This document shows, piece after piece, positions 39,001-50,595 of a stretch of DNA of 64,000 bases (position 1 is its first letter; each line of letters opens with the position of its first letter). The notes beneath the pieces were generated by a model. The model saw nothing but the letters and a program-made list of their open reading frames with translations, made no database searches and had not been told where the DNA came from. Made by a program: the position numbers and the translations under genes. Source of the DNA: Deltaproteobacteria bacterium CG11_big_fil_rev_8_21_14_0_20_42_23 (GTDB lineage Bacteria > UBA10199 > 2-02-FULL-44-16); contig PCXC01000081.1 in assembly GCA_002796345.1 (NCBI GenBank), positions 27,314 to 91,313 on the forward strand. Direction: 5' to 3'.

Positions 39001-39716
39001 CCCTCTTCACCAATGAGCTTTACAAAACGACACTTGCTTATTTTTCGCTCAGTATACTCATTTCCATTTTTTTGGATACAAAGAAGTTCTTGTGTTTCTT
39101 CTCCTCCAACGGGAATAATAAGACGTCCGCCATCGCAAAGTTGCTCACGCAATTGTTCGGGAACAACGGGCGCACCAGCGGTAACGATAATACCATCAAA
39201 AGGTGCTTTTTCTTTCCAACCCAAAGTACCGTCACCAACTCTGAAAAAAATATTTTTGTACTTGAGCTTGTATAAAACTTTTCGCGCTCCCACCGACAAA
39301 CTTTGAATGCGCTCTATGGTATAGACTTCGCCCGCAAGTTCAGCAAGGACAGCAGTTTGATAGCCAGAGCCAGTTCCAATTTCCAAAATTCTTTTTTGAT
39401 TATTCAGCTCAAGCAACTCCGTCATGATAGCAACCATGATAGGTTGTGAAATCGTTTGCCGCTCACCAATATGAAGAGAGCGATCAAAGTAAGCTTGTTC
39501 TTCCATTCCCGCAGACACAAAAAGATGCCGAGGAACTTTTTCCATCGCGGAAAGAACTTGTTTGTCTTTGATTCCTCCGACAATAAGTTGCTCTTGCACC
39601 ATTTTTTTTCTGGCTATTTTATAATAATCGTAACCATCTGCATGTCTTTTACTTTTGTTCATCGTTTGACTCTCATAAGGCAAATAAGGCTTCAGCATAT
39701 TTCCAAAACTCCTCAC
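38994..39716 (-). CDS. pcm: protein-L-isoaspartate O-methyltransferase
   Basis: SAM-binding VLEIGTGSGYQTAVLAEL and the PCMT C-terminus; the start may be an internal Met (MNKSKR). Confidence 0.85.
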   Translation of the reverse strand: MRSFGNMLKPYLPYESQTMNKSKRHADGYDYYKIARKKMVQEQLIVGGIKDKQVLSAMEKVPRHLFVSAGMEEQAYFDRSLHIGERQTISQPIMVAIMTELLELNNQKRILEIGTGSGYQTAVLAELAGEVYTIERIQSLSVGARKVLYKLKYKNIFFRVGDGTLGWKEKAPFDGIIVTAGAPVVPEQLREQLCDGGRLIIPVGGEETQELLCIQKNGNEYTERKISKCRFVKLIGEEGW

Positions 39717-40462
39717 AATTTCCAGGTTCTCAAACGGCTCAACATATCAAAATCAGTTTGATTAATTTTAAGTGGTGTCACGGCAATTTTTTTCTCCTGA
39801 AGAGCGTCACAGTCTGAACCGGGAATACTTTGAAAGCCAAGCTCCCCTCCACCTAGCCAGTAGTAAGGTTTTCCGCGCGGATCACTTTTTTTGATAATGT
39901 GATCTCCATATGTTCGTTTGCCTTGCGACGTGATGACGCACTCGAAGTCTTCGTCTGTTTTTCCATTAGGCACATTCACATTCAGCATAATATCGGCAGG
40001 AAGAGAATGTTCAAAAATTTGCTCTGCAAGCTTTACAGCAAAGCGCGCCGCAGGTTGAAACTGAAAATGATCGAAGGTAGCGAGCGAAATAGCAAACGAA
40101 GGAATACCAAGCAAACCCGCTTCTCTTGCTGCAGCCACAGTTCCTGAGTAGTGAATATCATCACCAATATTTGGACCATGGTTGATGCCAGAAACAACAA
40201 GGTCTGGCTTCTGCTTGAGAATTTCCATCACCCCTAACATCACGCAATCAGTTGGAGTTCCTGTTGTGGTATAGACATTATCCGCTCGCTCTACAATGCG
40301 AAGCGGACGGTGCAAGGTAAGCGAATGGCTTGAAGCACTTCGCTCGTAATCTGGCGCCACCACCACAACGTTTGCAATATTTTTCAACGCGGCCACAAGG
40401 CATTGAAGGCCTTCGGCATGAATTCCATCATCATTTGAAACTAGAATAAGGGGTTTACTCAT
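39713..40462 (-). CDS. surE: 5'/3'-nucleotidase SurE
   Basis: N-terminal ILVSNDDGIHAEG signature. Conserved surE-pcm-nlpD order. The start is trimmed to MSKPLILV. Confidence 0.85.
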   Translation of the reverse strand: MSKPLILVSNDDGIHAEGLQCLVAALKNIANVVVVAPDYERSASSHSLTLHRPLRIVERADNVYTTTGTPTDCVMLGVMEILKQKPDLVVSGINHGPNIGDDIHYSGTVAAAREAGLLGIPSFAISLATFDHFQFQPAARFAVKLAEQIFEHSLPADIMLNVNVPNGKTDEDFECVITSQGKRTYGDHIIKKSDPRGKPYYWLGGGELGFQSIPGSDCDALQEKKIAVTPLKINQTDFDMLSRLRTWKL

Positions 40463-40618
40463 AACGTTAACTTTCTCAAAAAGAAGGGAGCTTTCTGTAA
40501 GATTTACACACACATGTGTCAAGATTTGAAATAGCAAAAACCCCCGCATTTTTGCCGCATTCCAAGAAGTTTTTCACCTAGACTTCTTTTTCAATGAATG
40601 CTAACGGGTCGCCCCACT

Positions 40619-41656
40619 ATGAGTGAATCGTACAAAAAAGCTGGTGTAAATATTGATGCGGGAAATGCATTTGTTGAACGCATTAAACCCTTTGTGCAAG
40701 CAACAAAGCGCCACGGCGTTCTCACTGAACTTGGTGGCTTTGCAGGTTTTTTTCAACCTGATCTTGCTGACATGAAGGAACCTGTTTTGGTTTCTGGCAC
40801 GGATGGCGTTGGCACAAAACTGATGCTCGCAAAAGAGCTTGGCGATGTTTCACGCATTGGCATCGACCTTGTTGCCATGTGCATCAATGACATAGCTTGT
40901 TCTGGAGCAACTCCCCTTTTCTTTCTCGACTATCTTGCAACAGGCCAACTTGATGTTGAACTGCACGCTCGCGTCGTAGAAGGTATTGCCGAAGGATGCA
41001 AGCAAGCAAAGTGTGCGCTCATCGGAGGAGAGACTGCCGAAATGCCAGGATGCTATCAAGGCACAGACTTCGACCTGGCTGGTTTTGCGGTGGGCATTGT
41101 GGACAGATCAAAAATAATCGACGGCACCGAAATACGTGTTGGGCAAAAAATCATTGGCGTTGCTTCCAGCGGGTTTCATAGCAACGGTTACTCTCTTGTT
41201 CGAAGTATTATCAAAGATCACAATCTCAATCTTTCAGCAGCACTTCCAAACAGCACATCAAGCATTGGCGAAGCTTTGCTGGAACCCACTTTTATTTACA
41301 GCTCTCTCATCACTCAACTCTTAAAACAATTTTGCATCACCGGCATTGCGCACATTACTGGCGGCGGATTTTGGGATAACATTCCACGCATTCTACCACC
41401 GCGTGTGATGGCAACTATAAACAGCAGCGCTTGGCAACGTCCTCCAGTGGTTTCGTTTCTTCAAGAAACAGCAAAAATTGACGAAAGCGAAATGCTGAGG
41501 GTCTTCAACGCTGGCATTGGTTTAGTGCTTATTGTTCCTGAAGAACAAAGTCAGAGCGTTTGCGATTTTATTCAGAGTGCACAACACCACGCTTGGATTA
41601 TTGGCGACATCAAAGCAAGTGATGCTGATGCCACCATTCAATTTACAAACTTATGA
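40619..41656 (+). CDS. purM: phosphoribosylformylglycinamidine cyclo-ligase (AIR synthetase)
   Basis: PurM N- and C-domains (YKKAGVNIDAGN, GGFAGFF, DGVGTKL). Confidence 0.9.
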   Translation: MSESYKKAGVNIDAGNAFVERIKPFVQATKRHGVLTELGGFAGFFQPDLADMKEPVLVSGTDGVGTKLMLAKELGDVSRIGIDLVAMCINDIACSGATPLFFLDYLATGQLDVELHARVVEGIAEGCKQAKCALIGGETAEMPGCYQGTDFDLAGFAVGIVDRSKIIDGTEIRVGQKIIGVASSGFHSNGYSLVRSIIKDHNLNLSAALPNSTSSIGEALLEPTFIYSSLITQLLKQFCITGIAHITGGGFWDNIPRILPPRVMATINSSAWQRPPVVSFLQETAKIDESEMLRVFNAGIGLVLIVPEEQSQSVCDFIQSAQHHAWIIGDIKASDADATIQFTNL

Positions 41657-42252
41657 GTTCTTCACCTCTCATTCTCGGCGTTCTTATTTCTGGAAATGGA
41701 AGTAATTTACAAGCCATCATCGATGCCTGCCAGGAAAAGCGCATCAATGCTAAACTTGCTGTGGTTGTAAGCGACAACAAAAATGCCTACGGATTACAAC
41801 GTGCAGAGGAAGCTGGCATTCCGCATTTTGTCGTTAAGAGAACTGCCTTCGCTTCTCAAAAGGAATTTGAAGAAGAAATTGTAAGCTGCTTAAAAAGACA
41901 TAGCGTACAGCTCGTTTGCCTTGCGGGTTTCATGCGCATCATTGGAAAAAACTTACTCGCCGCATTTCCAAATCATATTCTCAACATTCATCCCTCTCTC
42001 TTGCCTGCGTTTCCCGGACTTGATGCTGTAAAGCAAGCCTATGATGCCAAGGCAAAACTTGCCGGCTGCACTGTTCATGTTGTGGATGAACTTATGGATC
42101 ATGGCCCCATTTTGCTTCAGGCATCTGTGGAAGTTACTGCCAGTGATACCTATGAAAGCCTAAAAGCGAAAATTCTTGAACAAGAACACAAGATCTATCC
42201 AAAAGTAATTCAACTCATTGCTGAAAAGAAAATCTCTCTCAGCACATTTTAA
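41653..42252 (+). CDS. purN: phosphoribosylglycinamide formyltransferase
   Basis: Formyl-transferase fold (ISGNGSNLQAII, NIHPSLLPAFPG, HxxD region); overlaps purM by 4 nt. Confidence 0.85.
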   Translation: MSSSPLILGVLISGNGSNLQAIIDACQEKRINAKLAVVVSDNKNAYGLQRAEEAGIPHFVVKRTAFASQKEFEEEIVSCLKRHSVQLVCLAGFMRIIGKNLLAAFPNHILNIHPSLLPAFPGLDAVKQAYDAKAKLAGCTVHVVDELMDHGPILLQASVEVTASDTYESLKAKILEQEHKIYPKVIQLIAEKKISLSTF

Positions 42253-42319
42253 AAAAATTTGTGCGGCAGGGATTTACAAAAAGAAAAAAACATTCTAGAG
42301 AATTTTGCCAGGGGGAATT

Positions 42320-42904
42320 ATGCATTCATATCGATCAACTCTTTTTGTCTTCGTTTTCTTTCTTTCACTTTTTCTTTCCGCGCCGCAATCTGCAAAAGCA
42401 GTGGGCAATTTTTCAATGGGAATTGGACCGGTGGGAAATATTTTTATTGTTGATGCTAAAACACCGCTGGATCCAGGGCCTGGTGGCTATCTCTATTTCG
42501 ACTATCGCTGGTCACCTCAATTTTCAACCCAGGTGAGCGTGATGGTCTCCACACAAGATGGTGCCGGATCTAGCAACGGTGACAATGGCATTGAATTTTT
42601 GGGCATTCCTACATTCGACCTCAAGTTTTTCTTTCTCGCCAACGATTCTCGTTGGGACCCCTACGCCCTCTTGGGTGCCGGTGTTTACGCCATTAGTGAA
42701 GGAACAAGAAATAACGGTACGGTTGCAGTGGGCTTAGGTACAAACCTGGGATTTGGGCTTGATTACTACGTTAGCGAGCAACTCTCAGTTGGTGGAGCTG
42801 CCATCTTTCGCTCCATTGGCCTCATTGACAGCACCAGCGGCTCCAACAATGGAACAGCACTTTTTCCCTTTAGCATGATGGCAAACGTTGCGTGGCATTG
42901 GTAG
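42320..42904 (+). CDS. small outer-membrane beta-barrel protein
   Basis: Signal peptide ending AKA, alternating amphipathic beta-strands, and an aromatic C-terminus (..NVAWHW). Confidence 0.5.
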   Translation: MHSYRSTLFVFVFFLSLFLSAPQSAKAVGNFSMGIGPVGNIFIVDAKTPLDPGPGGYLYFDYRWSPQFSTQVSVMVSTQDGAGSSNGDNGIEFLGIPTFDLKFFFLANDSRWDPYALLGAGVYAISEGTRNNGTVAVGLGTNLGFGLDYYVSEQLSVGGAAIFRSIGLIDSTSGSNNGTALFPFSMMANVAWHW

Positions 42905-42907
42905 ACT

Positions 42908-43741
42908 TCAGAGTTCTTTTTTTAAGAGTCCGCTCTTCACCCACCCTGCCAGCATTTGCGTAAGGTGCAAAAGTTCTTCTTGGCTACTTCCAATCAGATC
43001 TTCTGCTTCTTCACACAATGTAGAAAACTTTTTCCCTGCTTTCAGAAGCTGTAAGAGCTTCTCTTCCTTTTCTTCAAGGCTTTGATACATCACTTCATAT
43101 TCATTTCGCCACAAAACTATTGAAGACGTTTCATCTTTCAAGCGTTCAAATGCAAAAACCGTTTCTGGAGAGCCCAGGTAATGCTTACGTATTTCCCACA
43201 CCGGAAACTGCGCCGTGAGAAATCGCACAGATGGCACAAGCTGCAAATGGAGATTTGGCCATGCTTCTGGAGCACATGCTTCCAAATCTGAAAGTTCAAG
43301 TGCAACAGCATCTGCCGCATCAAAGGCCTCAAGCAATTCCCATTCAAAAGCCGCAAGATCTGCCAGAAAAGGATATTGCTCTTGCAGCGAATGTCTTTTT
43401 AAAAAAGGGGGAAGATGCTTTCCTGCGTAACGCAGTGAGAAATGACGTGGAACATGAACGTTTAAATATTCACGAATGAGTTCAAGAAAAAGTTCATCAC
43501 CTAATACTGCATGCACAGTAGCATAGTCTTCCTTTAAGCTATTGTGGATGCGAATAAAATAAGCAGTGGCATAAATTTCTAATCGTCGAACGGCATCAAG
43601 TTTTTCAGTTGAACACACAGGCAAATCATGGAGTTGGTAATGTTCAATCGCAGCTTCAATTCCGCCGGAGTAACTCACAAGTTTTTTGATGAGATCTTGC
43701 GTCTCTTTAAGCGTTAGCTGACTGCTTGGATTTGAAGGCAT
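42908..43741 (-). CDS. DUF2063-family protein (MbnC/BufC-like partner of DUF692 enzymes)
   Basis: N-terminal LDAVRRLEIYATAYFIRIHNSLKEDY...LGDELFLELIREYL matches the DUF2063 RLxIYRNxY / LGxxxFxxL pattern. It overlaps the upstream DUF692 gene by 35 nt. Confidence 0.65.
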   Translation of the reverse strand: MPSNPSSQLTLKETQDLIKKLVSYSGGIEAAIEHYQLHDLPVCSTEKLDAVRRLEIYATAYFIRIHNSLKEDYATVHAVLGDELFLELIREYLNVHVPRHFSLRYAGKHLPPFLKRHSLQEQYPFLADLAAFEWELLEAFDAADAVALELSDLEACAPEAWPNLHLQLVPSVRFLTAQFPVWEIRKHYLGSPETVFAFERLKDETSSIVLWRNEYEVMYQSLEEKEEKLLQLLKAGKKFSTLCEEAEDLIGSSQEELLHLTQMLAGWVKSGLLKKEL

Positions 43742-44567
43742 GATATCTTTCCTTTGCTCGGGTGAGTTCTAAGAGGAGCTCATCAAAGGGAGGAATGTGA
43801 TCGTCCCATTCAATAAGGGTTGAAACATCTCCAAAACGTTCGAGCGCTTTATCGTACAACTTCCACACTTCATCTCGAATGTGGTGATCATGCGTATCCA
43901 GCAAGTGCGTGCCCATGTCACTATGACCAGCAAGATGAAACTGGCCAACGCGCTTGGGATCGATCGCGTTTAAATAAACATGCGGATCAAATTCGTGATT
44001 CACAGCACTTACAAAAATATTGTTGATGTCGAGCAAGATATTGCAATCGGCTTCTTCCGCAATGCAGCTGACAAATTCCCATTCAGTCATCGACGAAGAA
44101 TGATACTCCATATAACTGGAAACATTTTCGAGTAAAATTTTTCGTTCAAGAAAATCTTGCACCTGTCTAACCCTTGCTATCACATGCTTTGCCGCCTCTT
44201 CTGTTTGTGGAATGGGCATCAAATCATGCAAGCTATGTTTTCCAGTGCTGCTCCAACACGTGTGATCAGAAATCCACTTTGGATTACAACGATCTGCAAG
44301 TTGCTTGAGTTTTTTAAGGTAGTCAAAATCGAGGGGATCTGTAGAACCAATGGACATCGAAACGCCATGCATCACAATGGGATAATGTTCTGCAATTTGA
44401 TCTAAAACTGAAAGCGGCCTTCCACCAGGAATCATGAAGTTTTCAGAAATCACTTCAAACCAGTCAACTTCTTTGGGCCACTTTTCTAGAATATCGGGGT
44501 AGTGCTTTGTTCGCAACCCTACCCCGAAACTTAGAAACGGACATGCTTTTGAATCAGCAGTCTTCAT
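43707..44567 (-). CDS. DUF692 family non-heme di/tri-iron enzyme (MbnB/BufB-like)
   Basis: Hallmark motifs GVGLR, WFEVISENFM, HGVSMSIGS, ISDHTCW, LENVSSY, LLDINNIFVSAVNH, FHLAGH, DTHDHHI and IEWDD. Confidence 0.8.
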   Translation of the reverse strand: MKTADSKACPFLSFGVGLRTKHYPDILEKWPKEVDWFEVISENFMIPGGRPLSVLDQIAEHYPIVMHGVSMSIGSTDPLDFDYLKKLKQLADRCNPKWISDHTCWSSTGKHSLHDLMPIPQTEEAAKHVIARVRQVQDFLERKILLENVSSYMEYHSSSMTEWEFVSCIAEEADCNILLDINNIFVSAVNHEFDPHVYLNAIDPKRVGQFHLAGHSDMGTHLLDTHDHHIRDEVWKLYDKALERFGDVSTLIEWDDHIPPFDELLLELTRAKERYHAFKSKQSANA

Positions 44568-44833
44568 TATTTTTCAACTTTTCCGCCTTTTTCAACGCAC
44601 TCTGCTTCAGTTGCAGTTTTGATGAAGCCTTTTCCGCCACAACCATTTTGTCCTGCACAAGCATTGCCTGCAGTTTTGCATGCACTGTGACCTTTGCACG
44701 CATTTGCGCCCATACATTTTACCATGTCAGCTTTTTCAGCTTTTGGCGCGCTGTCGGCATTTGCAGCACCAGCAATGAAAAGACCAGCAACCGCAGCAGC
44801 TACCATAGCACCTTTTAATGTTCTTTTGTTCAT
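44567..44833 (-). CDS. DUF2282-type Cys-rich secreted precursor peptide (bufferin BufA-like)
   Basis: Sec signal MNKRTLKGAMVAAAVAGLFIAGAANA, then KCMGANACKGHSACKTAGNACAGQNGCGGKG with 6 Cys (C-x-G-x-N-x-C-K-G repeats). Start at 44833 with AAGGGG upstream. The TGA overlaps the ATG of the DUF692 gene (ATGA). Confidence 0.75.
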   Translation of the reverse strand: MNKRTLKGAMVAAAVAGLFIAGAANADSAPKAEKADMVKCMGANACKGHSACKTAGNACAGQNGCGGKGFIKTATEAECVEKGGKVEK

Positions 44834-44906
44834 GTGTTCCCCTTGTGATTCAACAAACTGCTTTTTTTCACTATGAGAAAAAACGGTTTGTTCTGAGTTT
44901 CTGCAG

Positions 44907-44935
44907 ATTCTAGAAAAAGCAAAATCTCTCGTCAA
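44907..44935 (-). promoter_or_regulatory. near-consensus sigma-70 promoter for the DUF2282-DUF692-DUF2063 operon
   Basis: Minus strand: TTGACG (44935-44930), a 17 nt spacer, then TAGAAT (44912-44907); about 65 nt 5'UTR to the bufA-like ATG. Confidence 0.45.
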
Positions 44936-44968
44936 TAAGAAAAATGAGGGAGGAAAAGGAAGGAAGTA

Positions 44969-46078
44969 TTAAAATTCTAACTGCCCTTTCATAAAGGCAA
45001 TAATTTTTGCATTTCCCAAAAACTGGTCGAAGAGATCGTTCCCAGAGGGAGCTGCTGGAAGTGTGGTTTCCAGTCGTAAGGTAATGTTTCCGCCCGATAA
45101 TGGCTCAAGCGTTTCAAGCATTAAGTTTGGAATATCAAAATCAACAATCCCTGCTAAGCCAGGTGTTACCTGCTCTGGATCAAGTTCACCAAGCACAACG
45201 CGAATGCGGAAAGAAACTCCATCCAAATCTAAACGCGTTCCATCAAAACTTCCCTCGGCGACTATTTTTTTGCTTCCAGTAATAATCATTGTGGCGGTTA
45301 CGCCTGAAGGAAGATCAGGAATTTCTGTACTGCGCAGATACATAATAACTGGCGGAAATTCATCCATGCTTAAGGTTGCGCCTTCATCAGAAATGGTGAT
45401 GGGAATTTTTCCCGTGATGATCAGATCTGTAGGTCCACCTGGAAGTAAACTTGGGATATCAAGCGCAAACCCGCCGCTGTAGCATGCGCGCTGGTCACCC
45501 GGCGTACATTCGCCAAGCGTTGCACCAATGGCAAGCTCACCATTTGGCCCAGGTGCTGCTTCACCAATCAACTGAACATACACAAGTCCTTCACGCGGAG
45601 AATCAAACATAAACTGTAAAAGCCCGCGATGAAGAGCAGAATATTCTTTTACCTGACTTTGCTGATATTCACCTACTTGGTCTTCGGTAACTGGCGTCCA
45701 GCGTTCTGTTTCACCAGTAACCCAACCACCAAAACTTGCTTTCGTCGTTTCCAAATTCAGTGGCGAGTAAGTGACTTTTACCTTCAAGACATCGCCGGGA
45801 GGAATCACAATATCTTTCTGCTGCGACTCTTGCCCACCCACAAGAACTTGTGTCACTTGAAAATGACCTTCTGCATTTGAATAAGGCTCAAAGCCTGCAA
45901 AACGAAGATGCTGCTCTTCATCTTTACTGGGATTGGCAATGGTAATGCTGCGCGTTGACTCCAGCGTAATTTGCGTTTTCGGAAACACTTCATCCTGCCA
46001 CGCCGTAAACTGATCCGGCGCTTGGCTGCACGCAGCAAGCAAAAGCACAGCACAAGTTGTAATCAATCGTTTCGTCAT
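44969..46078 (-). CDS. hypothetical lipoprotein
   Basis: Lipobox LLLAAC|S; 369 aa, Gly/Thr-rich, likely beta-rich; no recognisable motif. Confidence 0.5.
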   Translation of the reverse strand: MTKRLITTCAVLLLAACSQAPDQFTAWQDEVFPKTQITLESTRSITIANPSKDEEQHLRFAGFEPYSNAEGHFQVTQVLVGGQESQQKDIVIPPGDVLKVKVTYSPLNLETTKASFGGWVTGETERWTPVTEDQVGEYQQSQVKEYSALHRGLLQFMFDSPREGLVYVQLIGEAAPGPNGELAIGATLGECTPGDQRACYSGGFALDIPSLLPGGPTDLIITGKIPITISDEGATLSMDEFPPVIMYLRSTEIPDLPSGVTATMIITGSKKIVAEGSFDGTRLDLDGVSFRIRVVLGELDPEQVTPGLAGIVDFDIPNLMLETLEPLSGGNITLRLETTLPAAPSGNDLFDQFLGNAKIIAFMKGQLEF

Positions 46079-46267
46079 ACGTAAAGTTTTGTTCCCATAC
46101 CTTCAAAGAGCCACATTGCCTAGTGCCAGCGTGTCAAACCGGAGACGCATAGCAGCATAATGTCTCAACCTCTTATCGGTGGCTCATCAGAAAAGTTGCG
46201 TGAATAGTTTGCTCACGCATTTTGGTGTATTTTACTTTAAATATTAAGGGGTTAGAAAACTAGCTCT

Positions 46268-47623
46268 TCAACGCACTTTAGGCATGATGGGATAATTTTC
46301 GGTGAAGCAGGCGTCGCAGTATTCGTCTTTGTTTTTTTCGTCCTCGAACCAATATAAATCATCGCGGGAAAGGTAGGAAAGGCTGTCAGCGTCGATGAAC
46401 TTTCTGATTTCTTCGATGGAGTGATTTGCTGCGGTGAGTTCTTTTTTATCTGGCGTATCAATGCCGTAATAGCATGGCCCAATTGTAGGTGGCGAGGAAA
46501 CACGCATGTGCACTTCTTTTGCGCCAGCCTTTCGCAACATTTTTACAATTTTCATTGAGGTTGTTCCACGCACAATGGAATCATCTACAACGATCACACG
46601 TTTTCCCTCAAGCACTTCGCGAACGGGATTGAGTTTGAGCTTTACGCCAAAATGTCTAATTTCACTTACGGGTTCAATGAACGTACGCCCTACATAATGG
46701 TTGCGAATCAAGCCAAGCTCATACGGAATCCCTGATTCCTCGGCATAACCAATCGCCGCCGGCACACCTGAATCGGGGATGGGAATAACCACATCGGCAT
46801 CAACCGGAAACTCATTTGCCAACTGCTTTCCAAAGCCTTTACGAATGGGATACACATCGCGGCCAAACAAATGGCTGTCGGGACGAGCGAAATAAATATA
46901 TTCAAAAATACACTTTTTTGCCCTCTTCTTTGCTTTTTCAAATGGCTTGAACGAATGTATACCCTCTTGATTGAACAACACAATTTCACCAGGTTCGATG
47001 TCGCGCACATATTCTGCATCTATCAAATCGAGCGCGCAGGTTTCGGAAACCACAATGTAACCGTCTCCAATTTTTCCAATTGAAAGCGGACGAAAACCGT
47101 AAGGGTCACGCGCTGCTACCAAGCCTTCTTTGCACAAAAAAGTAAGGGAATAAGCACCTTCAACTTTTTTGAGTGCTGCTGTAATGCGATCAACAATATT
47201 TCCTTTTTTTTCACGTGCAATTAAATGCATCACCACTTCGGTATCCATGGTAGATCTAAAAATAGCACCATCTTCCTCAAGCTGCGTTTTCAAAAACTTC
47301 GAGTTGGTAATGTCTCCATTGTGCGCAATGCCATACGATTCACCTCTCGCATTCACCACAAATGGCTGAGCATTGGCTAAGACTGAAGTACCGGTTGTTG
47401 AATAGCGAACATGACCAATGCAAGCATCGCCAGCAAGTTTTTCCAAAAGAGGTTGATCAAACAAATCAGCAACAAGCCCCATACCACAATGCTGATGAAA
47501 GCTCTTGCCGTCTAATGAGAAAATACCAGCGCTTTCCTGTCCGCGATGTTGTTCTGCATACAAGCAGAGATAGGCAAGCTTGCTTGCTTCTTTATGATTA
47601 AATACTCCAACAACACCACACAT
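46268..47623 (-). CDS. purF: amidophosphoribosyltransferase
   Basis: N-terminal nucleophile MCGVVGVF and the PRTase domain DDSIVRGTT. Confidence 0.95.
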   Translation of the reverse strand: MCGVVGVFNHKEASKLAYLCLYAEQHRGQESAGIFSLDGKSFHQHCGMGLVADLFDQPLLEKLAGDACIGHVRYSTTGTSVLANAQPFVVNARGESYGIAHNGDITNSKFLKTQLEEDGAIFRSTMDTEVVMHLIAREKKGNIVDRITAALKKVEGAYSLTFLCKEGLVAARDPYGFRPLSIGKIGDGYIVVSETCALDLIDAEYVRDIEPGEIVLFNQEGIHSFKPFEKAKKRAKKCIFEYIYFARPDSHLFGRDVYPIRKGFGKQLANEFPVDADVVIPIPDSGVPAAIGYAEESGIPYELGLIRNHYVGRTFIEPVSEIRHFGVKLKLNPVREVLEGKRVIVVDDSIVRGTTSMKIVKMLRKAGAKEVHMRVSSPPTIGPCYYGIDTPDKKELTAANHSIEEIRKFIDADSLSYLSRDDLYWFEDEKNKDEYCDACFTENYPIMPKVR

Positions 47624-47654
47624 AAAAACTCCTTAAGCCTTCTTCGCAGAAAAC

Positions 47655-49880
47655 TTATGCATCATTTGAAAATCTTTTTGCAAACGCGTTTCGCCAACGA
47701 TCATTTAACTCAGCAACATTAATGTTAATCACACCCTCGTTTATGGAGAAACAGGATCCACCTACTTCGCCAATAACACTGCTGTTCACGCCACACTCTT
47801 TTGCAATGTTTTGGAGGTTTTCAAGATCTTGCGGCGCAACAGAAACCACAATGCGTGAAGCGGTTTCGCCAAACAAAAGCGCATCCATTCGAATGTTTTC
47901 TTGGAGGTTCACTCTGACACCTAACAGACTGCCAGACCTTGTCAAGCATGACTCTGCCAAGCATATGGCCAAGCCACCATCAGAAACATCGTGTGCAGAC
48001 TTGATCATTTTGCGTTCGATAAGCGTTCGGCATAAAGCCTGAAGTGCTTTCTCATATTCAAAGTTTAAAGATGGTGGAAACCCTGCTACTTTTTGGTGAA
48101 TCACACTCAGGTATTCACTTGCCCCAAGATCAAGCTCTGTTTTTCCAAGCAAGACAATCATGTCGCCGCTGTCTTTCCACCACGGCGTCATTACTTTTTC
48201 GGCATCTTCCAAAAGCCCAACCATGGCCACTGCCGGCGTGGGATAAATACCTTCACCTGAAGTCTCGTTGTAGAAGCTTACGTTTCCACTTACGATGGGA
48301 GTTGAAAAAGCTTCGCACGCAGCAGCCATACCGCGAAGCGATTGTGTAAACTGCCACATAATTTCTTTACGCTCAGGATTTCCAAAGTTGAGGCAATCGG
48401 TAATGGCAAGTGGCTTTGCCCCCACGCAACTTAAGTTCCGCGCAGATTCAGCAACAGCAAGGGCTGCACCAGTGTAAGGGGCGAGGTAGCAATATCGGCT
48501 GTTGCAATCGGCACTCAGCGCAATGGCTTTCTTGGTGTCTTTAATCCGCACCACTGCTGCATCAGCGCCAGGGAGCACAAGCGAATTTGTCATCACCATA
48601 TGATCATACTGCTGCCAAATCCAAGCCTTGTTGTATAAGTTTGGAGACTCAATCAAGGTAAGAAAAGCTTCTTGATATGATTTTGGTTCTGGAATTTCAT
48701 CAAGGTTTAATTCTTGCTTTGCAGCAAGATCACTTGGTTTTTCAGCTGGTCTGTCATACAGAGGCGCTTCATCCACCAGCGGCCGGATAGGCATATCCAC
48801 CACAACTTCGCCGCGATGTTCGATGTGCATTTTTCCGCTGTCGGTCACTTCACCAATCACCGCTACATCAAGATCCCATTTTTCAAAAATATTTTTTACA
48901 ATATCTTCTTTTCCACGCTGCGCTACAATCAACATGCGTTCCTGCGACTCTGACAACATCATCTCATACGCCGTCATGTTTTCTTCGCGCTGCGGAACGA
49001 AGTCTAGGTTAAGCTTCATGCCACTGCCCGCACGGTCTGCCATTTCAAACGAAGAACTCGTGAGCCCCGCTGCACCCATATCTTGAATACCAACGATGGC
49101 ATCTTCTTTCATCAACTCAAGGCAAGCTTCTAGCAACAGTTTTTCTGTGAAAGGATCGCCCACTTGAACCGTTGGACGTTTTTCTTCGGAGCTTTCGTCA
49201 AATTCATCCGAAGCCATGGTGGCACCGTGAATACCATCGCGCCCAGTTTTAGAACCTACATAAATAACAGGATTGCCAACACCAGAACCAAATCCACGGA
49301 AAATTTTGTCGCTATCCAAAAGGCCGATGCAAAATGCATTCACCAAAATGTTGCCGTTGTAACACGCATCGAAACTACATTCGCCGCCAACCGTTGGAAT
49401 ACCCATCGTATTTCCATAGCCGCCAATGCCTGATACCACACCATTTACCAAGTATTTGGTTTTGGGATGATCTACACTTCCAAAACGAAGTGAATTCAAA
49501 AGCGCAATAGGCCTTGCTCCCATCGTGAAAACATCGCGTAAAATTCCGCCCACTCCCGTTGCTGCGCCTTGATATGGTTCGATGTAGGAGGGGTGGTTGT
49601 GACTTTCCATTTTGAAGCAAACAGCTTTGCCATCGCCAATGTCCACCACGCCAGCATTTTCGCCCGGGCCTTGTAAAACCTGTGGGCCTTTTGTGGGAAG
49701 TTTTTTCAAGTGAATACGCGAGCTTTTGTACGAGCAGTGCTCAGACCACATCACAGAGCAAATACCAAGCTCGGTAATGCTGGGCTCTCTTTCCAAAAAC
49801 TTGAGGATTTTTTTATATTCCTCTTGAGAGAGACCATGTTCAGCAATTAATTCTGGAGTTATTTTTGTTGGTGTCGTCAT
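47655..49880 (-). CDS. purL: phosphoribosylformylglycinamidine synthase subunit PurL
   Basis: 741 aa small-PurL architecture with duplicated AIRS-like domains. Confidence 0.95.
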
Positions 49881-49905
49881 ATTTTTATGAGGGTCATGCC
49901 AAACA

Positions 49906-50595
49906 TCACATGACAGAACGAATGAGTGATTGGAAAATTTTCAGTCCATCTTCATTGTGTAAAATACTTTCAGAACAACGTTCAGGATGCGGCATCATGC
50001 CCATTACATTTCCGGCTTCATTGCTAATACCTGCAACAGCAGACACAGACCCATTAAGGTTATCGGTTTCCGTCAGCTCACCTTCAGAGTTGCAATAGCG
50101 GAAAATAATTTGTTTCTTTCTTTCGTATTGCTTTATCACGTTGTCTTGCTCAAAAAAGTTTCCATCCATATGCGCCACTGGAATACGCAACACTTCTGCT
50201 GCTGCACATTGCTTGGTAAATGGTGTGTTGTTATTTTCAACTCGAACGTAAAGGTCTTTGCAGATGAACTTGAGATTTTTATTTCGCATCAAAACGCCCG
50301 GCAAAAGTCGCGCTTCTTGCAAAATTTGAAAACCGTTGCAGATACCAAACACCAAACCAGCATTGCTAGCAAATGCTTGCACACTCTGCATTACCGGAGA
50401 CTTTGCTGCCACAGCGCCAGAGCGCAAGTAGTCACCGTAGGAAAAACCACCTGGCACTACAATGAGGTCTGCATCTTTCAAATCTGTTTCTTTGTGCCAG
50501 ATAAAAAAAGCTTCTTGGCCCAAAACATTTTTAAGCACATGCAAACAATCGTGATCGCAATTGCTTCCAGGAAAAACAAGAATTCCACATTTCAT
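49906..50595 (-). CDS. purQ: phosphoribosylformylglycinamidine synthase glutaminase subunit PurQ
   Basis: Class I glutamine amidotransferase with the catalytic Cys in GICNGFQ and the His/Glu in MPHPER. Confidence 0.9.

What the first reader, a model, noticed from the sequence alone, without database searches (positions are those of the whole stretch)
44567..44833. Precursor peptide with six cysteines in C-x-G-x-N-x-C-K-G-type repeats and ATGA coupling to the modifying enzyme
The 89 aa product has a clean signal peptide (cleavage predicted after AANA). Its core is KCMGANACKGHSACKTAGNACAGQNGCGGKG...ECVEKGGKVEK. The periodic Cys/Gly/Asn pattern is what DUF2282 models encode. It has six Cys, against the four in the characterised Caulobacter Buf1, suggesting a multi-site modified variant. 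The stop overlaps the DUF692 start (ATGA), indicating stoichiometric co-translation.
Basis: seen in the sequence. Interest (0 to 1): 0.7.

Follow-up and report, generated by a model that had tools for sequence, protein, structure and literature searches.

The report
BufA2-type bufferin precursor, known family
This small gene encodes an ordinary member of the already described six-cysteine BufA2 (Buf2) bufferin family, a secreted copper-binding peptide made by the two enzymes encoded next to it, and not a new variant of the four-cysteine DUF2282 (Buf1) family.

Summary
The ORF is real. It lies at 44567-44833 on the minus strand and encodes 88 aa, not 89. It has a Sec-type signal peptide, a 62-aa core and six Cys.

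The family assignment is wrong. Pfam DUF2282 gives no hit even at E<=10, while true DUF2282 controls score 73-85 bits. The protein passes the curated cut-off of NCBIfam NF050166, "BufA2 family periplasmic bufferin-type metallophore" (77.5 bits against 60).

All six Cys and both C-x-G-x-N-x-C-x-G motifs are invariant in 45 homologues. Six Cys is the norm for the family.

The downstream genes are a BufB-type MNIO (377 bits against 310) and a DUF2063 partner. There is no DoxX gene. This is the layout of the published Caulobacter buf2ABC operon.

For Caulobacter Buf2, the published work reports that the four central Cys are oxidised and that CysI and CysVI are left unmodified and likely form a disulfide. 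In the better-studied Buf1 the same modification was identified as 5-thiooxazole.

The gene junction reads TAATGA. The TAA stop shares one base with the ATG, so this is not an ATGA overlap. Related loci usually have a gap of about 58 nt, so "stoichiometric co-translation" is not supported.

Verdict: a new, uncharacterised member of a known kind, of low interest.

The parts
44907..44935 (-). Sigma-70-like promoter candidate (TTGACG, 17-nt spacer, TAGAAT; 10 of 12 matches), about 74 nt upstream of the bufA start codon.
   Evidence: Consensus scan. The region held fewer such sites (4) than shuffled sequence (mean 6.0), so this is only a candidate. No terminator-like site lies between the upstream lipoprotein gene and bufA, so read-through transcription is also possible.
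44838..44844 (-). Shine-Dalgarno-like AAGGGGA, ending 4 nt before the bufA ATG.
   Evidence: Read directly from the sequence. It supports the ATG at 44833 over the upstream TTG at 44935. In the 95%-identical homologue P0002, the stretch upstream of this Met has diverged strongly while the part from MNKRTL onward has only 4 substitutions.
44756..44833 (-). bufA codons 1-26: predicted Sec signal peptide MNKRTLKGAMVAAAVAGLFIAGAANA, with cleavage predicted after A-N-A.
   Evidence: Rule-based check. Homologues have small residues in the equivalent -3/-1 positions, such as ALA|D, ARA|E and AHA|E. The family is described as carrying Sec signal peptides (PMC11626156 and PMC12452194). SignalP was not run.
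44570..44755 (-). bufA core peptide of 62 aa with six Cys. Core positions are 14, 20, 26, 33, 39 and 53, which are full-length positions 40, 46, 52, 59, 65 and 79. It contains two C-x-G-x-N-x-C-x-G motifs.
   Evidence: invariant columns C40 G42 N44 C46 G48 C52 C59 G61 N63 C65 G67 C79. NCBIfam NF050166 BufA2 covers residues 8-86, which are profile positions 1-78 of 79.
44567..44569 (-). bufA stop codon TAA, sharing its last base (44567) with the bufB ATG. The junction reads TAATGA.
   Evidence: Upstream of the bufB ATG the only SD-like stretch (AAAGGCGGA) lies roughly 15-25 nt away, so reinitiation after bufA termination is plausible. This is an inference.
43707..44567 (-). bufB: MNIO (formerly DUF692) bufferin maturase, 286 aa.
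   Evidence: Pfam PF05114 MbnB_TglH_ChrH, 368.9 bits. NCBIfam NF050167 MNIO_BufB equivalog, 377.2 bits against a cut-off of 310. PDB 3BWW (DUF692), E = 5e-54. It carries D255-D256 where 3BWW has D-F. The second Asp is the published 'Cys-Lys MNIO' signature (PMC13097082). It is D-D in 44 of the 56 MNIOs next to BufA2-like genes in related loci.
42908..43741 (-). bufC: DUF2063-domain partner protein (published partner class PME-type 1; family members have an RRE-like C-terminal domain), 277 aa. It overlaps bufB by 35 nt and has its own SD-like AAAGGAAAG.
   Evidence: Pfam PF09836 DUF2063, 52.6 bits against 27.2. NCBIfam HvfC, 55.9 bits, below its cut-off of 142. A homologue follows the MNIO gene in most related loci. 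No solved structure was found by sequence.

Best explanation
The ORF is bufA2, the precursor of a Buf2-type bufferin (also called a 'Cys-Lys' captophorin). It is the first gene of a compact bufA-bufB-bufC operon.

Proposed mechanism, by analogy with Caulobacter buf2:
1. The 88-aa precursor is made in the cytoplasm.
2. The MNIO enzyme BufB, together with its DUF2063 partner BufC, carries out a four-electron oxidation on each of the four central Cys (C46, C52, C59, C65). Each becomes a 5-thiooxazole.
3. The Sec machinery then exports the peptide, and signal peptidase I cleaves after Ala26.
4. The outer Cys pair (C40 and C79) forms a disulfide that ties the first beta-strand to the C-terminal helix.
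5. The mature 62-residue periplasmic peptide sequesters excess copper through its thiooxazole groups.

Shown here: family membership of all three genes, the gene order, the invariant Cys pattern and the features of a signal peptide.

Inferred from the literature: which Cys are modified, the chemistry, the export order and copper binding.
For: Precursor:
- NCBIfam equivalog NF050166 BufA2 scores 77.5 bits against a cut-off of 60, with an end-to-end profile match.
- All 45 database homologues also match BufA2 and none matches DUF2282.
- The six Cys and both CxGxNxCxG motifs are invariant.
- 71 of 82 relatives in genome loci have exactly six Cys.
- One homologue, P0043, is already named 'BufA2 family periplasmic bufferin-type metallophore' by NCBI.

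Enzymes:
- BufB passes the MNIO_BufB equivalog cut-off (377 against 310). It fails the HvfB, ApyH, MbnB and ChrH cut-offs.
- Motifs that include the family's known metal-binding positions (HG, SDH, EN, DxNN, HxAGH, DTH, ExD) align identically with PDB 3BWW.
- BufB has the Asp (D256) reported as specific to Cys-Lys-type MNIOs.
- BufC carries DUF2063.

Operon layout:
- The A-B-C order recurs in most of the roughly 58 related loci that carry an MNIO. These come from Myxococcota, Binataceae, Gammaproteobacteria, Legionella and other groups.
- There is no DoxX gene, as in Caulobacter buf2.

Literature:
- Caulobacter Buf2 shows a -18 Da shift, which becomes -16 Da after reduction. Its central Cys each carry -4.03 Da. 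CysI and CysVI are unmodified and likely disulfide-bonded. Both buf operons are copper-induced and protect against copper (PMC11626156).
- 90% of Buf2 precursors have six Cys (PMC12452194).
- 5-thiooxazole chemistry has been confirmed for bufferins (bioRxiv 10.64898/2025.12.15.693703; PMC13097082).

Structure model: the AF2 model is weak, but it places C40 in a strand (residues 38-41) and C79 in a helix (76-81). This matches the published description of a disulfide between the first strand and the short helix.
Against: - Nothing about modification, export or metal binding was or could be tested here. These steps rest on analogy with one characterised homologue, whose sequence I could not retrieve for a direct alignment.
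- The paper numbers CysI and CysVI of Caulobacter Buf2 as Cys24 and Cys50. That span of 26 residues does not fit the 38-39-residue span seen here and in all homologues. I could not resolve this discrepancy. It may be a matter of numbering.
- The AF2 model is of low confidence (mean pLDDT 64).
- CysIV and CysV are followed by Ala and Gly here rather than the consensus Lys. Other family members share this, but it could affect how fully the peptide is processed.
- No copper-related regulator or copper-handling gene was identified next to the operon. Its neighbours are purine-biosynthesis genes.
- About a quarter of related precursors have no MNIO nearby, so the family is not always modified in cis.
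Confidence: 0.85

Rival explanations
1. One reading: a DUF2282 (BufA1-type) precursor that has gained two extra Cys, making it a new multi-site variant of Buf1.
For: The two families are probably distantly related. The literature says their predicted folds are very similar. Three homologues carry a weak precomputed PF10048 hit from a different Pfam version. The insignificant hhalign alignment does line up C40, C52, C59 and C79 with the four DUF2282 Cys.
Against: PF10048 gives no hit at E<=10 for the window protein and no hit for any of the 45 homologues. Two true DUF2282 controls score 85 and 73 bits. The hhalign probability is 0.6%. The Cys spacing differs. A curated BufA2 model is passed instead. 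There are no DoxX, sigma-factor or NrsF genes.
Confidence: 0.03
2. The peptide is modified by BufBC, but its physiological role is not copper buffering. It might bind another metal, act as a redox or sulphur-stress buffer, or take part in metal acquisition.
For: No copper genes or SigF/NrsF regulators lie next to the operon. Its neighbours are housekeeping purine genes. The literature notes MerC-Buf2 fusions in mercury clusters and suggests that some bufferins answer other stresses.
Against: Every characterised member of the thiooxazole peptide class binds copper or protects against it. Lack of synteny with copper genes is also usual for Buf2 clusters.
Confidence: 0.1
3. The small protein is an unmodified, disulfide-rich periplasmic protein, and its position next to the MNIO gene is incidental.
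For: About 24 of 82 related precursor genes have no MNIO within 4 kb. The literature also reports stand-alone precursors.
Against: Here the three genes overlap (by 1 nt and 35 nt) on one strand. The same A-B-C order recurs across phyla. The enzyme carries the residue signature matched to Cys-Lys substrates.
Confidence: 0.02

Closest known systems
Bufferin 2 (BufA2, CCNA_03001) and the buf2ABC operon of Caulobacter vibrioides. This is the Buf2 / Buf_6/12Cys family (NCBIfam NF050166), also called the 'Cys-Lys' group of captophorins.
   Same: It has a Sec-type signal peptide and a core of about 61-62 residues. It has six conserved Cys. The operon consists of precursor, MNIO and DUF2063 partner, with no DoxX gene. 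The curated HMM cut-offs are passed for both the precursor and the maturase. The enzyme has the Asp signature of Cys-Lys MNIOs.
   Different: It comes from a different host, an uncultured low-GC (42%) 'Deltaproteobacteria' groundwater MAG. There is no evidence of SigF-type regulation. The bufA stop overlaps the bufB start, which is uncommon in the family. CysIV and CysV are followed by Ala and Gly rather than Lys. The last loop is one residue longer than in most members. None of this falls outside the variation seen within the family.
Bufferin 1 (BufA1, DUF2282, PF10048) and the buf1ABCD operon.
   Same: It works on the same logic: a Sec signal peptide, an MNIO plus a DUF2063 partner, thiooxazole formation on the central Cys, an outer disulfide and copper sequestration.
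   Different: It has four Cys with different spacing and a different sequence family, and the Pfam model does not match the window protein. The buf1 operons often include DoxX, and Buf1 clusters can carry sigma/NrsF genes, both absent here.
EGKCG-repeat peptides (oxazolin, fontiphorin, gonophorin, bulbicupramide), the 'Lys-Cys' captophorins made by HvfB-type MNIOs.
   Same: They are made by an MNIO from the same large subfamily, with a DUF2063 partner, and are 5-thiooxazole copper-binding peptides.
   Different: Their substrate motif is Lys-Cys-Gly in EGKCG repeats, not Cys-Lys. The window's maturase scores 275.5 bits against the HvfB model, below its cut-off of 360. It has Asp where PDB 3BWW, which does not carry the Cys-Lys Asp signature, has Phe.
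Methanobactin (MbnA/MbnB/MbnC).
   Same: It is an MNIO-modified, Cys-derived, copper-binding RiPP.
   Different: It has a leader peptide rather than a Sec signal, uses oxazolone-thioamide chemistry and has MbnC as the partner. The window's maturase scores 58.8 bits against MbnB, far below the cut-off of 325.

Membership tests
BufA2 / Buf2 (Buf_6/12Cys) bufferin precursors | Match to the curated family HMM (NCBIfam NF050166, equivalog) above its cut-off. | tested here: met
   77.5 bits against a cut-off of 60. Residues 8-86 cover profile positions 1-78 of 79. All 45 homologues also match.
BufA2 / Buf2 (Buf_6/12Cys) bufferin precursors | Six (or twelve) conserved Cys in the core. | tested here: met
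   Six Cys, all in invariant alignment columns. 71 of 82 relatives have exactly six. The literature reports six Cys in 90% of Buf2 precursors.
BufA2 / Buf2 (Buf_6/12Cys) bufferin precursors | N-terminal Sec-dependent signal peptide instead of a RiPP leader. | tested here: inconclusive
   The rule-based features are all present: n-region charge +3, a 16-residue uncharged h-region, and A-N-A before the predicted cut. No lipobox is visible. No trained predictor such as SignalP was available, and there was no experiment.
BufA2 / Buf2 (Buf_6/12Cys) bufferin precursors | Genetic association with a BufB-type MNIO and a DUF2063 partner protein. | tested here: met
   MNIO_BufB scores 377.2 bits against 310, and DUF2063 scores 52.6 against 27.2. 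The genes overlap by 1 nt and 35 nt on the same strand.
BufA2 / Buf2 (Buf_6/12Cys) bufferin precursors | The cognate MNIO carries the Cys-Lys-type specificity residue (Asp at the position equivalent to FonB-Phe250 / BufB2-Asp251). | tested here: met
   D256 aligns with the Phe of PDB 3BWW. The published signature is in PMC13097082. The pair is D-D in 44 of 56 MNIOs next to BufA2-like genes, against D-N or D-G in three Buf1-type copies. The equivalence of positions was inferred through the 3BWW alignment, not through a direct alignment with FonB or BufB2.
BufA2 / Buf2 (Buf_6/12Cys) bufferin precursors | Four central Cys converted to 5-thiooxazoles, an outer Cys pair forming a disulfide, and copper binding. 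| not testable with these tools
   This needs mass spectrometry, NMR and metal-binding assays. The predicted masses are given.
BufA1 / DUF2282 (PF10048) | Match to Pfam PF10048. | tested here: not met
   No hit at E<=0.1 or at E<=10, and 0 of 45 homologues hit. Positive controls score 85 and 73 bits.
BufA1 / DUF2282 (PF10048) | Four conserved Cys with the DUF2282 spacing (C-x10-C-x7-C-x20-C in the two controls). | tested here: not met
   The window protein has six Cys with spacing 6, 6, 7, 6, 14. Profile-profile comparison with DUF2282 gives a probability of 0.6%.
EGKCG / oxazolin-type (HvfA/HvfB/HvfC) | EGKCG (Lys-Cys-Gly) repeats in the precursor, and HvfB and HvfC models passed. | tested here: not met
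   There is no EGKCG motif in the sequence. HvfB scores 275.5 bits against 360, and HvfC scores 55.9 against 142.
Methanobactin (MbnA/MbnB) | MbnB equivalog model passed, and a short leader-core precursor without a signal peptide. | tested here: not met
   TIGR04159 scores 58.8 bits against 325. The precursor has a signal-peptide-like N-terminus.

The most novel reading that the evidence does not exclude
The unusually tight coupling of the three genes (a TAATG overlap between bufA and bufB, no well-placed SD for bufB, and a 35-nt bufB/bufC overlap) could be functional in this lineage. It would ensure that BufB and BufC are made on the same mRNA just after the precursor. They could then capture the signal-peptide-bearing precursor before the Sec machinery exports it unmodified. 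How premature export is avoided is an open question raised in the bufferin literature. A second, weaker reading is that the operon's position among purine-biosynthesis genes reflects a role unrelated to copper.
Probability: 0.05. Interest if true: 0.35.

Novelty: new member of a known kind. Interest (0 to 1): 0.15.

Why it matters
It matters little beyond annotation. The identical protein is deposited as a "hypothetical protein" (COX62_00085) in a Crystal Geyser-type groundwater MAG, and it can be renamed BufA2-family bufferin precursor. It adds one more lineage to a family already known to have thousands of members. The peptide could serve as another substrate for studying how Cys-Lys-type MNIOs choose their sites, because two of its four predicted target Cys are followed by Ala or Gly rather than Lys. 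It opens no new question.

Tried and rejected
- **Pfam scan of the precursor:** run at E<=0.1 and E<=10, it found nothing relevant.
- **Pfam scan of the homologues:** 13 of 45 weakly match DUF7640 (best E = 5e-4). I did not follow this up, and the window protein itself does not match.
- **PDB sequence search with the family profile:** it returned only chance hits with E around 0.8. No bufferin structure was found by sequence.
- **AlphaFold2 model built on the 45-sequence alignment:** mean pLDDT was only 64. I therefore ran no fold search, because the matches would be meaningless.
- **Profile-profile comparison of BufA2 with two DUF2282 sequences:** the result was insignificant, so homology between the two families could not be shown here.
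- **Retrieving the Caulobacter BufA2 sequence:** the paper's supplements are not held, and Caulobacter was not among the 80 loci returned. I made no direct alignment with the characterised peptide. The paper's Cys24/Cys50 numbering remains unreconciled.
- **Flanking genes as part of the system:** the flanking 369-aa lipoprotein gene and the convergent OMP beta-barrel gene have no homologues near bufA2 in any unrelated locus. I rejected them as parts of the system.
- **Rfam scan of 42000-47000:** it found no regulatory RNA, only one chance hit.
- **Second copy in the window:** a tblastn search of the window found no second buf locus.
- **The longer 122-aa ORF starting at TTG 44935:** I rejected it. 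The ATG at 44833 has an SD. Family alignments start at that Met. The upstream stretch is not conserved in the 95%-identical relative.
Full report
**Observation**

The region 44567-44833 holds an ORF on the minus strand of 88 codons plus a TAA stop. Its product is MNKRTLKGAMVAAAVAGLFIAGAANADSAPKAEKADMVKCMGANACKGHSACKTAGNACAGQNGCGGKGFIKTATEAECVEKGGKVEK.

The ATG at 44833 is preceded by AAGGGGA, which ends 4 nt upstream. ORF listing also gives a longer 122-aa reading from a TTG at 44935. I reject that start for two reasons. Family alignments begin at the Met of MNKRTL. In a 95%-identical relative (P0002) the upstream stretch has diverged heavily, while the part from MNKRTL onward has four substitutions.

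The N-terminus has the three regions of a Sec/SPase I signal peptide. The n-region has charge +3. The h-region is 16 uncharged residues. The c-region is A-N-A, followed by Asp. No trained signal-peptide predictor was available.

The predicted core is 62 aa with six Cys at full-length positions 40, 46, 52, 59, 65 and 79. Two C-x-G-x-N-x-C-x-G motifs (CMGANACKG and CAGQNGCGG) contain four of the six Cys. That pattern occurs nowhere else in the six-frame translation of the 64-kb window.

The junction with the next gene reads TAATGA. The TAA stop shares one base with the ATG of the DUF692 gene.

**What it is**

Pfam PF10048 gives no hit for it at E<=0.1 or at E<=10, and none for its 45 homologues.

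As positive controls I took two genes that lie upstream of a second, Buf1-type MNIO in related loci (L052 1231-1608 and L074 2645-3013). They score 85 and 73 bits against PF10048. Their four Cys have the spacing C-x10-C-x7-C-x20-C, unlike the 6, 6, 7, 6, 14 spacing here. A profile-profile comparison of the two sets is insignificant, with probability 0.6%.

The window protein does pass the curated cut-off of NCBIfam NF050166, "BufA2 family periplasmic bufferin-type metallophore". It scores 77.5 bits against 60, covering profile positions 1-78 of 79. All 45 homologues match the same model.

In the alignment of these homologues the invariant columns are C40 G42 N44 C46 G48 C52 C59 G61 N63 C65 G67 C79. 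These are all six Cys and both repeats. Among 82 relatives recovered from species-representative genomes, 71 have exactly six Cys. The extra Cys in the others lie in over-extended N-termini or in lipoboxes.

**Neighbours**

The next gene (43707-44567) is an MNIO. It scores 368.9 bits against PF05114 and 377.2 bits against NCBIfam MNIO_BufB, whose cut-off is 310. It falls below the cut-offs for HvfB, ApyH, MbnB and ChrH.

It aligns with the DUF692 structure 3BWW at E = 5e-54, and the conserved HG, SDH, EN, DxNN, HxAGH, DTH and ExD motifs are retained. At the position where 3BWW has D-F, the window enzyme has D255-D256.

The Mitchell laboratory reported that "Cys-Lys" MNIOs, including BufB2, carry Asp at this site (BufB2-Asp251). 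They proposed that it contacts the substrate Lys (PMC13097082). In related loci 44 of 56 MNIOs next to BufA2-like genes have D-D, while three Buf1-type copies have D-N or D-G.

The third gene (42908-43741) overlaps bufB by 35 nt. It carries DUF2063, scoring 52.6 bits against 27.2. DUF2063 is the partner-protein domain of bufferin maturases.

There is no DoxX gene, and no sigma or NrsF pair adjacent. The flanking genes are surE, purM, purN, purF, purL and purQ, together with an unknown lipoprotein and a convergent OMP beta-barrel gene. Neither of the last two accompanies bufA2 in any other locus.

**Comparison with the literature**

Leprevost et al. (PNAS 2024, PMC11626156) described two bufferin operons in Caulobacter vibrioides.
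- buf1ABCD has a DUF2282 precursor with four Cys.
- buf2ABC has a precursor with a Sec signal peptide, a 61-residue core and six Cys, and it lacks doxX.
- Buf2 shows a -18 Da shift, which becomes -16 Da after reduction.
- Its central Cys each carry -4.03 Da, while CysI and CysVI are unmodified and probably disulfide-bonded.
- Both operons are copper-induced and protect against copper.

The follow-up survey (PMC12452194) renames Buf_6/12Cys as Buf2. It reports thousands of members, with six Cys in 90% of them. It gives precursor, MNIO and DUF2063 genes, with or without DoxX, as the core of the cluster.

5-thiooxazole chemistry has since been confirmed for bufferins and the sister EGKCG peptides.

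The window locus matches buf2ABC in every feature that I could test.

**Mechanism**

Shown here: the gene identities, gene order and overlaps, the invariant Cys pattern and the signal-peptide features.

Inferred by analogy:
1. BufB and BufC oxidise C46, C52, C59 and C65 to 5-thiooxazoles in the cytoplasm.
2. The Sec machinery exports the peptide, and signal peptidase I cuts after Ala26.
3. C40 and C79 form a disulfide.
4. The 62-residue periplasmic peptide sequesters copper.

The AF2 model is weak (pLDDT 64). It does place C40 in a strand and C79 in a helix, which agrees with the published description of the disulfide.

The predicted monoisotopic masses are 6144.85 Da unmodified, 6128.73 Da with four modifications, and 6126.71 Da with the disulfide as well.

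**Translational coupling**

The 1-nt overlap, together with the lack of a well-placed SD for bufB, makes termination-reinitiation coupling plausible in this organism.

In 58 related loci the estimated distance from the bufA stop to the bufB start has a median of about 58 nt, and only a handful are at or below 3 nt. The start sites were assigned automatically, so individual values are approximate. The overlap is thus not a family trait. Coupling does not imply stoichiometric production either.

**Distribution and origin**

The identical protein is deposited as a hypothetical protein (COX62_00085) of a "Deltaproteobacteria bacterium CG_4_10_14_0_2_um_filter" MAG. It recurs with the same neighbours on contigs from several samples.

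They include Myxococcota, Binataceae, Legionella, Dyella and Cellvibrio.

**Caveats**

I could not retrieve the Caulobacter BufA2 sequence for a direct alignment. The paper's residue numbers for CysI and CysVI (Cys24 and Cys50) imply a shorter span than the 38-39 residues seen in every sequence here. I leave this unresolved.

No experiment on modification, export or metal binding is possible with these tools.

**Verdict**

It is wrong about the family and about the novelty. This is a new, uncharacterised member of a known and well-populated kind, and its interest is low.

Noticed in passing
L005 2649-5406 (GCA_974003855.1, contig CDAPSS010000012.1): A BufA2-like precursor gene is preceded by ECF sigma factor and NrsF anti-sigma genes. 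It is followed by DoxX and a short protein with only an HvfC_C domain. No MNIO lies within 4 kb. The published survey states that sigma/NrsF genes were found in Buf1 clusters but not in Buf2 clusters, so this locus looks like an exception.
   Followed up: partly
L076 4001-4745 and L086 2635-3152: Two BufA2-like precursor genes lie in tandem upstream of a single MNIO gene. The literature mentions tandem precursors in general terms.
   Followed up: no
L052 1231-3171 and 4001-5748; L074 334-2448 and 2645-4497: Buf1-type operons (true DUF2282 precursor, MNIO, DUF2063) and Buf2-type operons sit side by side on the same contig. L051 and L067 also carry a second MNIO/DUF2063 pair.
   Followed up: partly
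about 24 of the 82 related loci, for example L008 and L018-L026: These are stand-alone BufA2-like genes with no MNIO within 4 kb. Many come from Binataceae or 'delta proteobacterium' MAGs and share a distinctive C-terminal tail, GGHVGKKAPMAM.
   Followed up: no
window 39713-50595: The buf operon is embedded in a purine-biosynthesis neighbourhood: surE, purM and purN on one side, and purF, purL and purQ on the other. The stop codons of bufC (42908-42910) and the convergent OMP beta-barrel gene (42902-42904) are only 3 nt apart, which leaves no room for a terminator between them.
   Followed up: partly
window 44969-46078 (-): This 369-aa ORF has a lipoprotein-type N-terminus (LLAAC) and no Pfam or NCBIfam family. 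It lies directly upstream of bufA on the same strand, with no terminator-like site between them. It is not found near bufA2 in other genomes.
   Followed up: partly
homologues in alignment A1: 13 of the 45 BufA2 homologues, but not the window protein, give weak hits to Pfam DUF7640 (PF24646), with a best E-value of 5e-4. I did not examine what that family is.
   Followed up: no
PMC11626156 text, compared with alignment A1: The paper labels CysI and CysVI of Caulobacter Buf2 as Cys24 and Cys50, a span of 26 residues. Every BufA2-family sequence seen here has a CysI-CysVI span of 38-39 residues. With the usual family spacing and CysVI at position 50, position 24 would be CysIII. This may be a numbering slip in the paper or a real difference.
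   Followed up: partly
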